From the NCBI GenBank assembly GCA_047284725.1, contig JBJBEO010000001.1:1016203-1080202 (forward strand): a stretch of DNA of 64,000 nt. The letters run 5' to 3'. The stretch is from Synechococcus sp. (GTDB lineage Bacteria > Cyanobacteriota > Cyanobacteriia > PCC-6307 > Cyanobiaceae). Made by a program: the position numbers. This document shows positions 15,001-21,000 of this stretch, in pieces (within the stretch, counting starts at the first letter, position 1; the number at the start of each line of letters is the position of its first letter).

Positions 15001-18000
15001 AGGGCCTGTTGCAGGCTGACGTCGTTGGGGCAGAGCGCAAACAGTCCGTTGAGATTGATGGTGGGAGATACCTGGGTGTCGAGCACCGCCTTGGTCACTT
15101 CCTGGCGCAACACGTCGTTTGGCAAGGACGGCATCAGCGGGGCAACTCGCGTCTCCAGTGCGGTTTCCATCCGCTTTGGCAAGGCAGCCAGAAATGCCAT
15201 CTCTGCTTCACTGACGCCGGGATGCGACAACTGGCCGTGATTGTCTTGCAGTTGAACCCCTCCAGCTGCAAGGCCTGGAAGGTAAAGCCCGTCGCGCGCT
15301 GCCCGGTCGGGATCTCCCAGGGCCTGTTCCACCAGTCGATTCACCCCTCGCTTGCCTTCGTGCTCACCGTTGGTGAGGACGAAGAAATGTCCGCTCATCT
15401 GTGCCACCGCCTCGACGTAGTCGGGATCCATCCGGCGGGTCAGGGGATCCTTCACCAGCTCCATGCAGACGCCATCGAGGTCTTGAACGATGAGCAGGTT
15501 GTCGATGCCTGAGATCTCGTTCAGCAGTTCATCAGGAGTCAATCTCGGCACAGCGGGGCTTGGGCACGACGTTTAAGCCCTGGACCCTACGCCAGATTTT
15601 TGGAGGGTTGTCTGGGTGGACTCCAACCATGCAGCCTGGGGTCTGAGGCTCCGAGACGTCCCCTGGCGGGTCAACAGCAAGGTCTGCGTTGACGACTGTC
15701 AGGCACCTTGAGGGCACACTGGAGTCTGCTCTCGGATGGCCGGGTCGTTGTGCCTGATTTCAACAGCTCTGAAGAAAAGCGAGCCCGATTCGGAAAAGTG
15801 TTCGCCCCCCGCATCGAGAAGTTGATCGAGGATCTTCAGGCTGTGGCGAAAACGGCCAATTTGGACATCTATGAATTTGACGATGCCCTTGTCAAAAAAC
15901 TCTTCGTTGAGCTGGCTCGTCGCTTCAGAACCACGGCCCATCGGTTTGGTATTGAATTTGAGATCAGTGTGGAGGGTGAAGTCGTGGAGTAGTGATCGCC
16001 CGCTTCTCCATCGATCGCGTCTTTGGCTTCACCCTCCCTGGCCTCATCCGGCCACGTTGTTGCAGCGTTGCAGGAGTCGAACCTCCTGTTCGACCATCAA
16101 TTGATGCAGAGAGGCGGCGGGCATCAGTCCACCAAGGGTTGCAGACCGGTTGCTGGGCAGGGCCACCAGCCAGCCCTGCGGTTTCGAGGCCGATGACCGA
16201 CTCACAACAGACGACAAGCGATGCATAGGCGTTGCGATTGAGATGACGATGGACGTGCCCTGGATTGGCGGGTCATGACGTCATAGAGCCCTATCGGCTA
16301 GTGTGCTATGAGCAAAGTGGCCTATTTGCTCTTGTCTTGCCTGGGCTTTAGGCGGGAAGTCCCATGGCCTTGCGGTAGGCCGGTCGTTGTTGCACCGATG
16401 CGATCAAAGCCTGGATTGTTGGGTAGGGACTGAGGTCAAGCTCGGGGAAGAACACAGGCAGGTAGGCCAGGTAGGCCTGCACGGCGCAGTCAGCGGCCCC
16501 CCACTGCTCTCCCACCAGTGGCGTCTGGAGGTCAAGCATCCGATCGAGCTCGGCCATCAGGCGAGCAAACTCCCGCTCCCGGTTGCTTGGCACAAACAGA
16601 GCAATGGCCAATGTGGCATTGGCGAAGAGCAGCCATTGTGCCGTCAAGGCCCGTTCAGCCTCTGATCGGATGTCGTTGCTGTGACGCTCTGCCAGATGCA
16701 AGAGAATCGCACCGCTTTCAAACAGCTTGAGTGGTTCGCCATTCGGATCAGGCACGCTCGGATCCACGAGGGCAGGCAGCTTGCCGAAAGGGTTGACGGC
16801 GAGAAATTCCGGCTGCTGGTGTTGTCTGGCCTGGAGATCCAGCTCGATCAGTGCATAGCTGATGCCCTTCTCCTCCATGTACCAGCGGGGCATCGAGGCT
16901 CTTGTGCGTTGACCGCCGTAGAGGGTGAGGGGCATCGCTCTTGCTGCTTAGGGTGTAACCGGATCATGGTGCAGGGGCTGGGACGCAACGGATGACGCTC
17001 GAGAAGGGTTTAGACAGCAACGCCTTTTTTCCCCGCAGCCTTGATGGCGATCTGATCAAGCAGCGCATCCTCGACCTGGAGACAGGCAAGGTGGGCTTCT
17101 ACAGCGTGGGCCTGTATCCAGCTTCGCTGGCGTACAACTGCGCTATGCAGCAGGCCACCGAGCACAGCCTGATGTTGGCACCGCGCCCGGGCCGTGCCTT
17201 GCTGGGAGCCTTCCCTTCAGCTGCGCGTGAGGGCATGGATGCCACCCATGTGGCCTGTCTTGAGCGAATGGCGACCCACCTGGAGGGTGATGCACGGGTC
17301 CCCAACACCCTCGGTGATGTGATTCGGGAGTGCGAGCTCGTGGTGCTTGCCGCCAACAGCAATCACATTGAAGAAGATCTCCAGGAGGCTTGCCGTCTCC
17401 GGCGGGCCTTGGGTCGTGACCACGTGGTGCTGGCCTGTCTGGCCGGCTCCTTCACCCACGACCCCATCACCAATGAGTCCTACGTGTTGTGTGAGCGCGA
17501 GCCGAATCTCGCCTTCTTTTCCGGCTTCCATCGCCACGGCGCACTGCGCAATCCGCTCGATAGCTTCACGGCCAACTTCTGCCATCCGAATGCGCTCACC
17601 GCTCTGCTGGGTGCGCGCATGCTCGATCGCCTGTCTCCCAACATTCAGGTATCCCCAGGCGTTCACAACGTCGAGGGGCAGTACATCAAGGCGGCCAAGA
17701 ACATGTCCTCGGTGTTCGCCGGCTTTGGCTACGCCTACCACCAGGACAATCCCGGCGTGCTGCCCACCCTGCTCACGCTTTTGCTTGATCAATGCCTGGA
17801 TCAGGCTGCCACGGTGTCGATGGCACGCCGCGATCGCCAACGCCTCTACAACCGCCAGCCTTTCCCGCTCACGGAACTGGGTTACGGGGTTCAGAGGATC
17901 GAGGCCGCACTGGTGCGAGGTGGGGACATGGAGAAAGTGCGTGACCACACGTTTGCGCAGCTCACCGCGATGGTGGCCGATGTGCGCGGCAGCATGATGC

Positions 18001-21000
18001 TGCCCGTTTCGGGAACACCCACTCGTAATTTCCAGGCCGGTCAAGTGCTCGCTGATCGCATGCGCGATCTGAAACGCTGTCCGACGTCCATGGAAGAACT
18101 GGAACAGTGGTGTGAAGAGCAGGGGTTGCGCAAGGGTGGCCTCGAGGGGCTGAAAGCGCTGCGGTACTGGCCGCAGATCGTGCGCAAATACGCCATTCCG
18201 GTGCATGACGCTTCCATGGTGAATCTGCTTTACATGGCGATTTATGGAAAGCCGTCCACCAAGCAGGTGGCGTTTTCGGTGATGTCTGATAGCCGTGAGT
18301 TATCGGCCTACTGTCAGGAATCGGTCCGGCCCACGCACAGCCGGCGCTATGCCGAGGCGTTGCAGAACCTGCAGCAACCTGAGGCGATGGATCTGATTGT
18401 CAACGCGGTGATTGCCGATAATGCCCGCAAGGCGATCCGCGACGATCTTGCCCTCGAGGAAGGCAGTGAAGCAACGGATCCACCGGCCTATCTCCGTGCC
18501 ATGCACGTGATCGAAACCGCTCTCGATTGAGTCACCTCAGTTCAACAACGGCATCGGCAACAGCGCGGTAGGGGTCTCCATCACAGCTGAGCACGACCAC
18601 CTGCAGTCCATCGTCTGCGGCTTGGCGCAACATTGACAACACCGCTTGCAAACGGGTTGGGTCGGTATTGCTGAAGGCATCGTCGAACAGCACAGGTAGA
18701 CAACCGTCGTGGCCCGTGCGCAAGGTGTCGGCCAGGGCTAGACGCAGCGCCGCGTTGAGTTGCTCCCTCATTCCCCCGCTGAGGTTGGCAAAGGGCAGGG
18801 TGAGGCCATCCCGTTGGAGGCGTAAATCTCCTAGCCCGTTCTTGGCGTCATAACTGAGGCTGCACAGGGCATCGGGCTGAGGCAGCAGTGGCCCGAGGTA
18901 GTGGGCAATGCTGCGGCTGAGCGGTGCGGTGTAGCGCTGCGATAAGTCGCTGCGTGCGGTGTCGAACAGGTTCAGGAGATGCTGGTGCGCCTTCACCTGC
19001 AGCGCTTCATTGCTGTGGGCCCGTCGTGCCTGCTCCAGCTGGGTGCGAGCTTCCTCGGCATGGGCGTAGGGATCCCGGCGACCCAGGCTGTTGCAACGCT
19101 CCCGCAGGGCACCCCGCTCTGAACTCAGGCTCTGCAGGCGTTCCTGCAGTTGCTGCAGCTGTTGTTGCACCGCGTTCAGCCGGCGTGCGATCGCCGCTTC
19201 TGGGTCGTTGTTGGATCCATCAGCCTGGGGCAAGGCTTTCAGCTGCTGCTGCAAGTTGCCGATCTGTTCCTCCAGCTGCTGGAGGTCAGCGGTGATGCGT
19301 TCTGCGTCGCCGTGATCGCGAATCAAGGCGAGGCGCTGTTGATCAAGGCTGCGGATTTCTGCTGTCAGGGCTTCGCGTTGCAGTTGCAAAGCCTGTTGCT
19401 GCTGCTGTTGCCCCTTGAGCAAGGTCTCCTGTTGTTCCAGTTGCTGCAGAAGGGATTGGCGTCGTTCGTTCGTCTCGCGGTAGTGCTGGCGGCAGGTGAT
19501 CAGAGCTTGTTGAATGGCCTCCGCATCCTGAGGCGAAAGCCTTTCACTGGTTGCCTGAGCGCCATCGTTGAGCTCTTGCTCCAGGCTCTGGAGGCGTTCT
19601 CGTGCCGATGCCTCTTCGGCTTTGATGACCTTCTGATCATCGGCTTCAGGGGTTTGCTGCTGGAGCAGTGATTGGCGGGTGAGTAACTCCATGCGCTGTC
19701 GGCCACGGGCCTCCAGTTCGGCAACGCTGTCGGCCTGCCAGTGGCTGAGGCTCGCTTGGATGGTTTGTGTGAGCGCTTGATGCTCACGATGGATCGCCTC
19801 CAGGCCGTCGCCTCCCCCCGGGGCGATCCGCAGTTTCACGCCCTTGCCCACGGTCAGGGAGAAGGTGTTGGTGCGCCGCTGGGACTCCCCTGGCTCCATT
19901 GGGGCGTCATCGAGGCGCACCTGTTGATCACTGCACTCGAGGGTCACCACCGCAGCCATGGCATCACTTCGGATGGCGAGGGCTTCGAGTTGGCGCGTCT
20001 GGTCCTGCAACGTGACCAGGGCCTCATGCTCTGGGGCCCGGAGGCTGCTGAGGGCCGCGGTGATCTCCTTGTGTTGGCGCTCCCAGCTCAGCAACTGTTG
20101 TTGCTGCCGGTCCAGTTGCGTGAGGCGTTGTTCCAGCTGCAAGCGTTCCTCCAGGCGACGCAGCTGCTGACCTCGCAGTTCAAGGCCACTGCGCTTCTGC
20201 TCCAGTTGATCGCGGCCAAGCATCAACTGCTTCACGGCGTCGCTTTGCTCCACCAGCAGGCGTTGGAGGCGCTCCAGTCCGGCGGTGACACGGACGTTCT
20301 GCTGCTGTTGGTTCGCCAATGTCTGTTCGGTCTCCCGGAGCCGACGCAGTTGCAGTTGCAGTTGTTGGCGTTGCTGACTGAGAGGCGTGAGCTGCTGCTC
20401 CACTGCCTGGCGTGCGGCCTTGGCCTGGGCCTGTTGCCGCTGCTCGTCGAGCAGCTGGTTCTGTTTTTGCTCCAGCTGCGGTTTGCGCTCTTGTTCCAGC
20501 TGGCGCTGTTCGTCGTCGAGGGCATCGAGGCTGGTGCTTGCCTCCTCGTAGTCGTGCAGCTCAGCCGTGGCGGAGGCAAGTCGCTCCTCACTGGCCTTCA
20601 AGGCCTGTTCGCAGTGCCAAAGAACGCTCTGATGGCGAGTCCCTCGCGTGGTCAGGCTTGAGGACACCAATTGCTCAAGCCGGTCGTGCAGCTGTTGATC
20701 CAGAGGCGATTGCAGAGCAGCATCAGCTCCTTGCTCGAGTTGGTCGATCAGGCTGCGCAGGTCGTAGTGCTCGCCACCGAGCTTGAGCAGATCGCGGCCT
20801 CCTTCCCCCTGCATCACCCAGAGGTGGGCCCAGCGTGTGGGAAGCACCCGTCCTGCCTGGCGACTGCCGATGATCTCATCAACACCCAGCAGTGTTGCAA
20901 GCTGCTCTTCGGCTTCGCTGCCGAGGCGGGCAGGCTCGCCCGCACCGTTCAAGCTCGTCGTGCCGCTCTGGCCGCTGAAGCGTTTTTGAAGCATCCAGCT

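What a model noticed while it worked through the whole genome (the two positions that open the first line are those of the whole stretch)
16992..18530. A cryptic NAD(P)-dependent glycerol-3-phosphate dehydrogenase family fills the gpsA gap of Prochlorococcus and marine Sy [...]
g01052 (512 aa, no Pfam, NCBIfam or Swiss-Prot match) folds as a GpsA/GPD1-type glycerol-3-phosphate dehydrogenase. This genome has no gpsA, and every Cyanobiaceae genome searched that lacks gpsA has this family, usually next to the glucosylglycerol-phosphate phosphatase gene; it is the probable biosynthetic source of glycerol-3-phosphate for lipids and glucosylglycerol.
Evidence so far: No gpsA row in the tables. Same 61 genomes: this family in 36, PF07479 in 35; 26 have only this family, 25 only gpsA, 10 both, 0 neither (Fisher p 3e-9, kinship ignored, call 209). 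stpA/ggpP lies within 1.5 kb in 19 of 29 loci. Model pLDDT 80.5; the top 17 listed Foldseek rows are all G3P dehydrogenases (human GPD1 E 2e-8, Archaeoglobus, Leishmania, Coxiella GpsA) at 10-14% identity. K233, K236-N237, D330 and T344-R345-N346 are invariant in 30 sequences, matching the Lys-Asn, Asp and Arg-Asn motifs of GPD1 (motifs recalled). All named homologs among the best 120 of 636 are 'hypothetical'.
(Added by a program. Inside this text positions count along the whole contig: contig position 1,016,203 is position 1 of the stretch shown here. "Call 12" and the like, gene names such as g00115 and contig names such as C1 are that model's own, and its searches are not shown. The text may have been shortened before it was handed on; [...] marks where a part breaks off. 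The agent that wrote the report below was given it as the finding of a first reader that could run no searches.)

Follow-up and report, generated by a model that had tools for sequence, protein, structure and literature searches.

The report
Hidden glycerol-phosphate enzyme of marine picocyanobacteria
An unnamed gene of marine Synechococcus and Prochlorococcus encodes a protein shaped like the enzyme that makes the glycerol-phosphate backbone of membrane lipids, and it is the likely but unassayed replacement for that enzyme, which these microbes appear to lack.

Summary
The 512-aa ORF (16992-18530, +) is real and passes no Pfam or NCBIfam cut-off. My model (pLDDT 86.7) matches six glycerol-3-phosphate dehydrogenases (GPDH) at Z 25.0-27.7, next family 14.3; the C-terminal domain alone gives Z 11.9-15.0 against 5.7. 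Candidate counterparts of six of GPD1's eight active-site residues are invariant in 236 of 236 homologs, but the catalytic K120 position has no lysine and GxGxxG reads SVGLYP; an invariant K233 may stand in. In 151 Cyanobiaceae genomes, 55 of 57 without gpsA carry it; the other two break at the expected locus. All 26 genomes lacking gpsA, glpK and glpD keep it head-to-head with ggpP. Two corrections: the gene tracks the glucosylglycerol module (19 of 20 gpsA+/ggpS+ genomes, 1 of 74 gpsA+/ggpS-), and glpK/glpD occur in 48 of 75 carriers, so the FAD route is a live rival here. Best reading: a diverged NAD(P)H-dependent DHAP reductase of the glucosylglycerol module that took over from GpsA (about 0.78). 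It works like GpsA but fails membership tests. No assay exists. The scan noted this family before on five other genomes; part of one such report fell on later checking.

The parts
16992..18530 (+). 512-aa GPDH-fold protein (P0001): Rossmann domain about residues 28-225, GPDH-type helical domain about 226-445 with an insertion of about 40 residues (278-322), C-terminal extension 446-512
17103..17120 (+). S38-V-G-L-Y-P43, in the place of the GxGxxG nucleotide-binding loop (atypical)
   Evidence: first aligned pairs put S38 on the first Gly of 1txg and 1z82 if ungapped (sequences); conservation
17184..17195 (+). R65 and R68 after strand 2, invariant; suggest NADP(H) 2'-phosphate binding (inference)
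   Evidence: Cyanobiaceae GpsA has an invariant W-x-R there
17439..17453 (+). L150-A-G-S-F154: site of the GpsA 'KG' motif (human K120), with no lysine
17523..17537 (+). G178-F-H-R-H182 loop, counterpart of GpsA G-P-N; R181 is a family-specific invariant
17688..17702 (+). K233-x-x-K236-N237: K236-N237 equal GPD1 K204-N205; K233 sits where canonical enzymes have Gly or Ser, candidate substitute for K120
   Evidence: register from first aligned pairs with sequences; PMC9119304
17979..17993 (+). D330-x-x-x-S334, counterpart of GPD1 D260-x-x-x-T264
   Evidence: equivalence by motif order and secondary structure, not by a printed superposition
18021..18029 (+). T344-R345-N346, counterpart of the phosphate-binding S/G-R269-N270
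   Evidence: (best but non-significant segment)
18144..18149 (+). E385-G386, counterpart of the GpsA V-E-G motif
   Evidence: 235 of 236
14349..15551 (-). ggpP/stpA, glucosylglycerol-phosphate phosphatase, 400 aa; the conserved divergent partner gene
   Evidence: PF09506 E 1e-173 and TIGR02399 above cut-off
16348..16935 (-). glutathione S-transferase gene lying between the pair in this genome; not part of the conserved unit
   Evidence: absent between the pair in loci L113-L126, L132, L147-L149
15708..15992 (+). 94-aa ORF between the pair; no family above cut-off; not part of the conserved unit

Best explanation
The protein is a highly diverged NAD(P)H-dependent dihydroxyacetone-phosphate (DHAP) reductase that makes sn-glycerol-3-phosphate (G3P). 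Shown: GPDH two-domain fold, invariant candidate active-site residues, co-occurrence and gene order. Inferred: NAD(P)H (probably NADPH) binds the Rossmann domain through an atypical SVGLYP loop and R65/R68; R345-N346 hold the DHAP phosphate; K236, D330, N237 and S334 form the GPD1-like network; and the second cation, K120 in GPD1, is supplied from another place, most likely K233 one turn before K236, or R181. Inferred history: it belongs to the glucosylglycerol (GG) module, where it supplies GgpS with G3P alongside a housekeeping GpsA; marine Synechococcus lost gpsA and kept it; most Prochlorococcus-type genomes also lost ggpS, glpK and glpD, leaving it as the only recognisable G3P source for PlsY-based lipid synthesis.
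For: Fold: six GPDHs at Z 25.0-27.7, rmsd 3.1-3.7 over 298-328 residues, next family 14.3; C-terminal domain alone Z 11.9-15.0, rmsd 2.6-3.3 over 144-158 residues, next 5.7. Language-model features: nearest named clusters are all GPDH, 0.91-0.93. PF07479 is the only Pfam family weakly shared by several members, 9 of 76, best E 0.008; the distant homolog P0149 weakly hits PF01210, E 0.009. K236, N237, D330, S334, R345, N346 invariant in 236 of 236 and also in both 27-30%-identical homologs. Those two keep an A-K-G lysine and have Cys at 233, while the family has Gly there and Lys at 233. 55 of 57 gpsA-less genomes carry it; in the other two the contig ends at or just before the 5' end of ggpP. 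26 of 26 genomes without gpsA, glpK, glpD and ggpS carry it; 5 of 5 tested have PlsY and no GlpD or GpsA-like alternative. The named complete genome Prochlorococcus sp. MIT 0707 (L062) has the family and no match for gpsA, ggpS, glpK or glpD. dN/dS 0.12-0.16 in 7 of 7 pairs from ggpS-less genomes. Embedded in a full glpK-glpD-treS-ggpP / ggtABCD-ggpS cluster in L038, L040, L044, L048, L049, L147-L149. G064 has an intact copy and a gpsA with two stops; G044 has intact gpsA while this gene, ggpS and ggpP are all broken. The gap is in print: EC 1.1.1.94 unannotated in Prochlorococcus and WH7803 (PMC3369817).
Against: No assay. GxGxxG is not canonical. Profile-profile comparison with Cyanobiaceae GpsA is not significant (E 0.27 and 0.12) and the family HMM finds nothing in the PDB. 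Foldseek on the C-domain alone has no match at E 0.001. The insertion is poorly modelled in the domain model (pLDDT under 50 at 299-308 and 318-321). glpK and glpD are in 48 of 75 carriers including this genome; a published comparison treats FAD-dependent glpA as the marine G3PDH (PMC9361551), and overexpressing the FAD enzyme sll1085 raised GG output by 32% (PMC8168540). G358, a complete 2.8 Mb genome outside the family, lacks both gpsA and this gene but has glpK and glpD; G421 (97%, 30 contigs) lacks all four. G091 has the GG module without this gene. Two freshwater columns of the published table show neither gpsA, glpA nor glpK (read by eye) and I could not check them for this gene. ggpP is kept in the same 26 genomes without ggpS, which this reading does not explain. 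Counts ignore kinship.
Confidence: 0.78

Rival explanations
1. GPDH-fold protein with another job: an oxidoreductase for a different phosphorylated substrate, or a non-catalytic partner or regulator of GgpP. G3P in Prochlorococcus would then come from a still unknown enzyme.
For: K120 position empty, atypical glycine loop, 40-residue insertion and 65-residue tail. Its best companion is ggpP, 74 of 75 carriers, and both persist together where ggpS is gone (26 of 26).
Against: Counterparts of the phosphate-binding and carbonyl-binding residues are invariant; the C-domain matches GPDH far better than ketopantoate, mannitol or opine dehydrogenases; no other G3P source was found in 5 of 5 genomes tested; the gene also stands alone, away from ggpP, in 12 of 74 loci and in filamentous cyanobacteria.
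Confidence: 0.12
2. It is a DHAP reductase, but in marine Synechococcus such as this genome it is only an accessory for GG synthesis under salt; housekeeping G3P comes from FAD-dependent GlpD run backwards or from GlpK.
For: glpK, glpD and ggpS sit in the same 51 of 151 genomes; PMC9361551; PMC8168540; G358 does without gpsA and this gene.
Against: Cannot apply to the 26 genomes without glpK and glpD. FAD-dependent GlpD is described as the consuming direction and the NAD(P) form as the producing one (PMC12903740). GlpK needs a glycerol supply.
Confidence: 0.2
3. Extension of the best reading: in ggpS-less Prochlorococcus the retained GgpP dephosphorylates G3P, so the head-to-head pair forms a DHAP to G3P to glycerol route (overflow, redox sink or exudate), like the fused phosphatase-GPDH of Dunaliella (function recalled).
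For: ggpP kept 221-379 bp from this gene in 26 of 26 genomes without ggpS, with dN/dS 0.15-0.27 in 7 pairs.
Against: No activity data; GgpP is known as a GG-phosphate phosphatase; a shared promoter region or another substrate could explain retention; ggpP dN/dS is the highest of the four genes compared.
Confidence: 0.12
4. Part of an arsenosugar pathway with the neighbouring arsS.
For: arsS (TIGR04167 above cut-off) follows ggpP here and in the Prochlorococcus-type loci.
Against: In full GG clusters a treS-like gene, not arsS, follows ggpP; carriers outside the family have unrelated neighbours.
Confidence: 0.02

Closest known systems
Bacterial GpsA, NAD(P)H-dependent sn-glycerol-3-phosphate dehydrogenase (EC 1.1.1.94; PF01210 + PF07479; PDB 3k96, 1z82, 1txg)
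   Same: Two-domain fold (Z 25.5-27.7); K-N, D-x-x-x-T/S, R-N and E-G motifs in the same order; complementary distribution in Cyanobiaceae.
   Different: 12-14% identity, below all HMM cut-offs; SVGLYP for GxGxxG; no lysine at the KG motif; extra invariant K233 and R181; about 40-residue insertion and a C-terminal extension; tied to the GG module.
Eukaryotic GPD1 / GPD1L and Leishmania GPDH (EC 1.1.1.8; PDB 1x0v, 6e90, 1evy)
   Same: Fold Z 25.0-26.3; counterparts for K204, N205, D260, T264, R269, N270 of the eight-residue network (PMC9119304).
   Different: K120 absent at its position; no counterpart assigned for Q295; arginines rather than an acidic residue after strand 2 point to NADP(H) (general knowledge).
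Dunaliella salina DsGPDH (PDB 6iuy)
   Same: GPDH domain matches at Z 26.1; osmolyte context with a phosphatase (recalled).
   Different: There the phosphatase is fused (recalled); here it is a separate divergent gene, known for GG-phosphate.
Cyanobacterial glucosylglycerol system (GgpS, GgpP/StpA, GgtABCD, GlpK, GlpD, GghA, often gpsA)
   Same: The gene sits inside the full cluster in some lineages and follows ggpS/ggpP in presence and decay. gpsA is listed among the co-localised genes in other cyanobacteria (PMC6753628 figure legend).
   Different: No such gene appears in the passages read on this system; it outlasts ggpS in 26 genomes.
FAD-dependent GlpD/GlpA (EC 1.1.5.3)
   Same: Interconverts the same two metabolites; present in this genome.
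   Different: Unrelated fold and cofactor; absent from 27 of 75 carriers.

Membership tests
GpsA/GPD NAD(P)-dependent G3P dehydrogenase | Passes PF01210 and PF07479 cut-offs | tested here: not met
   9 of 76 members hit PF07479 only weakly, best E 0.008
GpsA/GPD NAD(P)-dependent G3P dehydrogenase | Rossmann domain plus GPDH-type helical C-terminal domain | tested here: met
   (predicted models)
GpsA/GPD NAD(P)-dependent G3P dehydrogenase | GxGxxG nucleotide-binding loop | tested here: not met
   S38-V-G-L-Y-P43; only the middle Gly is kept
GpsA/GPD NAD(P)-dependent G3P dehydrogenase | Catalytic Lys of the KG motif (GPD1 K120) | tested here: not met
   No lysine at 148-155 in 236 homologs; A/V/S151 and G152 in either register. 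Substitution by K233 is inference.
GpsA/GPD NAD(P)-dependent G3P dehydrogenase | Lys-Asn (K204-N205) | tested here: met
   K236-N237 invariant; first aligned pairs give K204 of 1x0v, K210 of 1evy and K179 of 1z82 if the helix is ungapped
GpsA/GPD NAD(P)-dependent G3P dehydrogenase | Asp-x-x-x-Thr (D260, T264) and Arg-Asn (R269-N270) | tested here: met
   D330, S334, R345, N346 invariant; matched by motif order and helices, D-to-R spacing 15 against 9-11; no residue-level superposition was printed
GpsA/GPD NAD(P)-dependent G3P dehydrogenase | Reduces DHAP with NAD(P)H to sn-G3P; complements a gpsA mutant | not testable with these tools
   needs an assay
Glucosylglycerol module | Co-occurs and clusters with ggpS/ggpP/ggt/glpK/glpD | tested here: met
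   48 of 51 ggpS+ genomes; 74 of 75 carriers have ggpP; full clusters in 8 loci
Glucosylglycerol module | Salt-induced expression with ggpS/ggpP | not tested
   only contig-level runs were available and they cannot show expression level
Ketopantoate reductase, mannitol(-1-P) dehydrogenase, opine dehydrogenase | Best structural match for both domains | tested here: inconclusive
   listed only at Z 14.3 or less (whole) and 5.7 or less (C-domain), far below the GPDHs; their catalytic residues were not tested

The most novel reading that the evidence does not exclude
A sequence-invisible class of G3P dehydrogenase in which a catalytic lysine has moved from the Rossmann domain to the helical domain is the only G3P source of most Prochlorococcus, and together with the orphaned, still conserved GgpP phosphatase it forms a two-step DHAP-to-glycerol outlet that these cells cannot recapture, since they lack glycerol kinase.
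Probability: 0.1. Interest if true: 0.88.

Novelty: new variant of a known kind. Interest (0 to 1): 0.64.

Why it matters
Every glycerolipid needs G3P, yet the enzyme is unannotated in Prochlorococcus (PMC3369817), and the published fallback, FAD-dependent GlpA, is not found in the 26 Prochlorococcus-type genomes examined here. The finding names one gene for a long-standing hole in the core metabolism of a dominant ocean phototroph, and one complementation test can decide it. If true it also adds a missing member to the glucosylglycerol module, shows an osmolyte gene taking over a housekeeping job, and offers a natural case of a relocated catalytic lysine in a textbook enzyme.

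Tried and rejected
Sequence routes to GpsA failed: phmmer and family HMM against PDB gave 0 hits; hhalign against 8 Cyanobiaceae GpsAs was not significant, and misaligned an R-x-x motif of the insertion with SRN. The PF18156 hit (E 8e-4, below cut-off, 1 of 76 members) was rejected as chance. Attempts to widen the two distant homologs found only each other and no locus; an Atlas search of P0149 did not complete. No phage homolog. Weak GlpD-like and PF01210 hits in three of five Prochlorococcus-type genomes proved to be ThiO-like oxidases and a nucleotide-sugar dehydrogenase. 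Sequencing runs were contigs only, three of four probably DNA, and were not used as evidence. The tree is a quick tree with long-branch warnings; it roughly follows taxonomy and supports no claim on origin or transfer. Fisher p-values (1e-21, 1e-17) ignore kinship and are not relied on. No complex was predicted because no binding is claimed. Literature: searches showed no listing or passage that assigns this family; the library omits most subscription papers, the locus tags of model strains were recalled and unverified, 11 of 21 supplements of PMC9361551 were not searched, and the 4 text supplements of the Prochlorococcus model paper PMC7900632 held none of the terms, so how that model fills the step is unseen.

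Full report
Observation. The window holds an intact ATG-started ORF at 16992-18530 (+) of 512 aa. It passes no Pfam or NCBIfam cut-off and has no PDB sequence match. It has 636 homologs among 8000 scored candidates; the best 120 are 71-89% identical and every named one is hypothetical or uncharacterised. The gene for glucosylglycerol-phosphate phosphatase (ggpP/stpA) lies divergently at 14349-15551, with a GST gene and a 94-aa ORF between. The genome is one contig, 99.98% complete, with no PF07479 or PF01210 match. Elsewhere it has ggpS with a ggt-type ABC transporter, and glpK next to FAD-dependent glpD.

Fold. A model from 76 sequences has pLDDT 86.7 and pTM 0.86. The first 16 listed Foldseek rows are all glycerol-3-phosphate dehydrogenases. 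Against 48,161 representative chains the six GPDHs score Z 25.0-27.7 (rmsd 3.1-3.7, 298-328 residues); the next is a ketopantoate reductase at 14.3. The C-terminal, substrate-binding domain folded alone (92 sequences, pLDDT 82.2) again ranks the six GPDHs first, Z 11.9-15.0, next 5.7; Foldseek on that domain has GPDHs in the first six rows but no match at E 0.001. Independent of the models, language-model features place GPDH clusters nearest among named ones, and 9 of 76 members weakly hit PF07479. Profile-profile comparison with Cyanobiaceae GpsA is not significant.

Active site. Human GPD1 uses Q295, R269, N270, N205, T264, K204, D260 and K120 (PMC9119304; abstract and passages). In 236 full-length homologs K236, N237, D330, S334, R345 and N346 are invariant. 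The first aligned pairs, read with the sequences and assuming no gap in the helix, put K236 on K204 of 1x0v, K210 of 1evy and K179 of 1z82. D330/S334 and R345/N346 are matched by order and secondary structure only. Two defining features fail. The GxGxxG loop reads SVGLYP. The KG lysine (K120) has no lysine counterpart in any homolog. Two distant proteins of unknown origin, P0149 and P0156 (27-30% identity), bridge the gap: they have N-P-G-P-Y-G, keep A-K-G, and have Cys at 233 and Asn at 181. The family has Gly at the lysine site and invariant K233 and R181. Canonical enzymes have Gly or Ser three residues before the K-N lysine. I infer that K233 replaces K120; the distance could not be measured. 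Invariant R65 and R68 after strand 2 suggest NADPH (inference).

Distribution. In the same 151 Cyanobiaceae genomes, all at least 90% complete, the family is in 75, gpsA in 94, glpK, glpD and ggpS in the same 51, and ggpP in 80. Family only 55, gpsA only 74, both 20, neither 2. The two with neither (G008, G048) are drafts whose contig ends at or just before the 5' end of ggpP, where the gene normally lies. Of the 20 with both, G064 has a broken gpsA and G044 a broken family gene along with broken ggpS and ggpP. Among gpsA-matching genomes the family is in 19 of 20 with ggpS and 1 of 74 without, that one being G044. So the gene follows the glucosylglycerol module, and in L038, L040, L044, L048, L049 and L147-L149 it lies inside the full cluster. 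Twenty-six genomes in six genera (24 of 1.6-2.0 Mb, 2 of 2.4-2.7 Mb; 20 single-contig; 99-100% complete) lack gpsA, glpK, glpD and ggpS, and all 26 keep this gene 221-379 bp from ggpP. I call them Prochlorococcus-type from size and from the closeness of one such protein to named Prochlorococcus proteins; the named complete genome MIT 0707 shows the same pattern. Five of five tested have PlsY and no alternative dehydrogenase. dN/dS is 0.12-0.16 in seven pairs, so it is not a decaying leftover. These counts share ancestry and are not independent.

Outside the family. In a phylum sample of 291, only 2 of 276 non-Cyanobiaceae genomes carry it and 274 of 276 match gpsA. The two without are G358 (complete, has glpK and glpD) and G421 (draft, none of the four genes found); two congeners of G358 have only weak gpsA matches. 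So gpsA can be lost without this gene where GlpK/GlpD remain. Of nine outside carriers checked, 8 have ggpS, 7 an intact-looking gpsA match, 1 a broken one and 1 neither gene found; there the gene stands alone.

Mechanism. Most likely the protein reduces DHAP to sn-G3P with NAD(P)H, serving GG synthesis where GpsA is present, and lipids as well where GpsA is lost. The exclusion argument is strong for the 26 genomes and weak for this one, where GlpK and GlpD exist. A published comparison lists FAD-dependent glpA for marine strains and gpsA in 2 of 48 of them (PMC9361551; passages and supplement rows), and the FAD enzyme of Synechocystis raised GG output when overexpressed (PMC8168540; passages), although the FAD form is described as the consuming one (PMC12903740; passages). 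The retention of ggpP without ggpS in all 26 genomes is unexplained and leaves room for a G3P phosphatase role or for a different joint function.

Known versus new. It works like GpsA but should not be filed as a GpsA: HMM cut-offs, the glycine motif and the K120 lysine were tested and not met. The gap is in print (PMC3369817; one passage). Eight literature searches showed no assignment of this family. I also saw passages of PMC6753628, PMC9948718, PMC12997750, PMC2874817, PMC5217662, PMC4390839, PMC6363710 and PMC13753778, none naming it, and only a supplement search of PMC7900632. Subscription papers, Cyanorak and the model files were not seen, so prior annotation is not excluded. The scan has five earlier notes on homologs in other genomes, seen after my reading was set; one reached the same GpsA-fold conclusion and is marked as partly fallen on later checking, with no detail shown.

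Verdict. Observation confirmed, interpretation mostly right but needing the three corrections above. New variant of a known kind; confidence in DHAP-reductase function 0.78; interest 0.64.

Noticed in passing
26 genomes listed; e.g. L113-L121, L132: ggpP/stpA is kept intact and under purifying selection (dN/dS 0.15-0.27) in genomes with no ggpS, always head-to-head with this gene. Its substrate there is unexplained.
   Followed up: partly
P0149 (676 aa), P0156 (662 aa): Two lone proteins of unknown origin bridge this family and GpsA (A-K-G lysine kept, long insertion after the R-N helix). No further relatives or loci were found.
   Followed up: partly
L177 (G064) and L178 (G429): gpsA with internal stops in two genomes that hold an intact copy of this gene; possible replacement in progress. 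The G429 piece lies at a contig end.
   Followed up: partly
L181, L173 (G044): This gene, ggpS and ggpP are all fragmented in one gpsA-positive genome that also lacks glpK and glpD: the module decays together.
   Followed up: yes
G358, G352, G406: Three 2.8-3.1 Mb genomes of one genus outside Cyanobiaceae have lost or degraded gpsA, lack this family and keep glpK and glpD.
   Followed up: partly
L037, L041-L043, L046, L050, L051, L057, L061, L072, L160, L161: Scattered stand-alone copies, 67-76% identical, in filamentous and other non-picocyanobacteria; most carriers checked have ggpS and gpsA.
   Followed up: partly
L070:4160-5929 (-): A sodium/solute symporter gene takes the divergent position upstream of the family gene in this Cyanobium-type locus; PMC9361551 reports a symporter with a GG-like distribution (identity of the two not checked).
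   Followed up: no
G125, G134, G143: A ggpP-family gene without ggpS, glpK, glpD or this gene in three genomes of one genus.
   Followed up: no
window 13246-14382 (-) and 12231-12689 (+): arsS radical SAM gene (TIGR04167 above cut-off) and fur directly downstream of ggpP; conserved order in the Prochlorococcus-type loci.
   Followed up: partly
window 18532-22445 (-): SbcC/Rad50-like ATPase (903 aa) and SbcD/Mre11-like nuclease (401 aa) pair, convergent with the gene; both below NCBIfam cut-offs.
   Followed up: no
window 22841-24013 (+): APH-fold phosphotransferase (PF01636) that directly follows the family gene in several Prochlorococcus-type loci (L117-L120, L122-L126) but not in others (L113-L116, L121, L132).
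   Followed up: no
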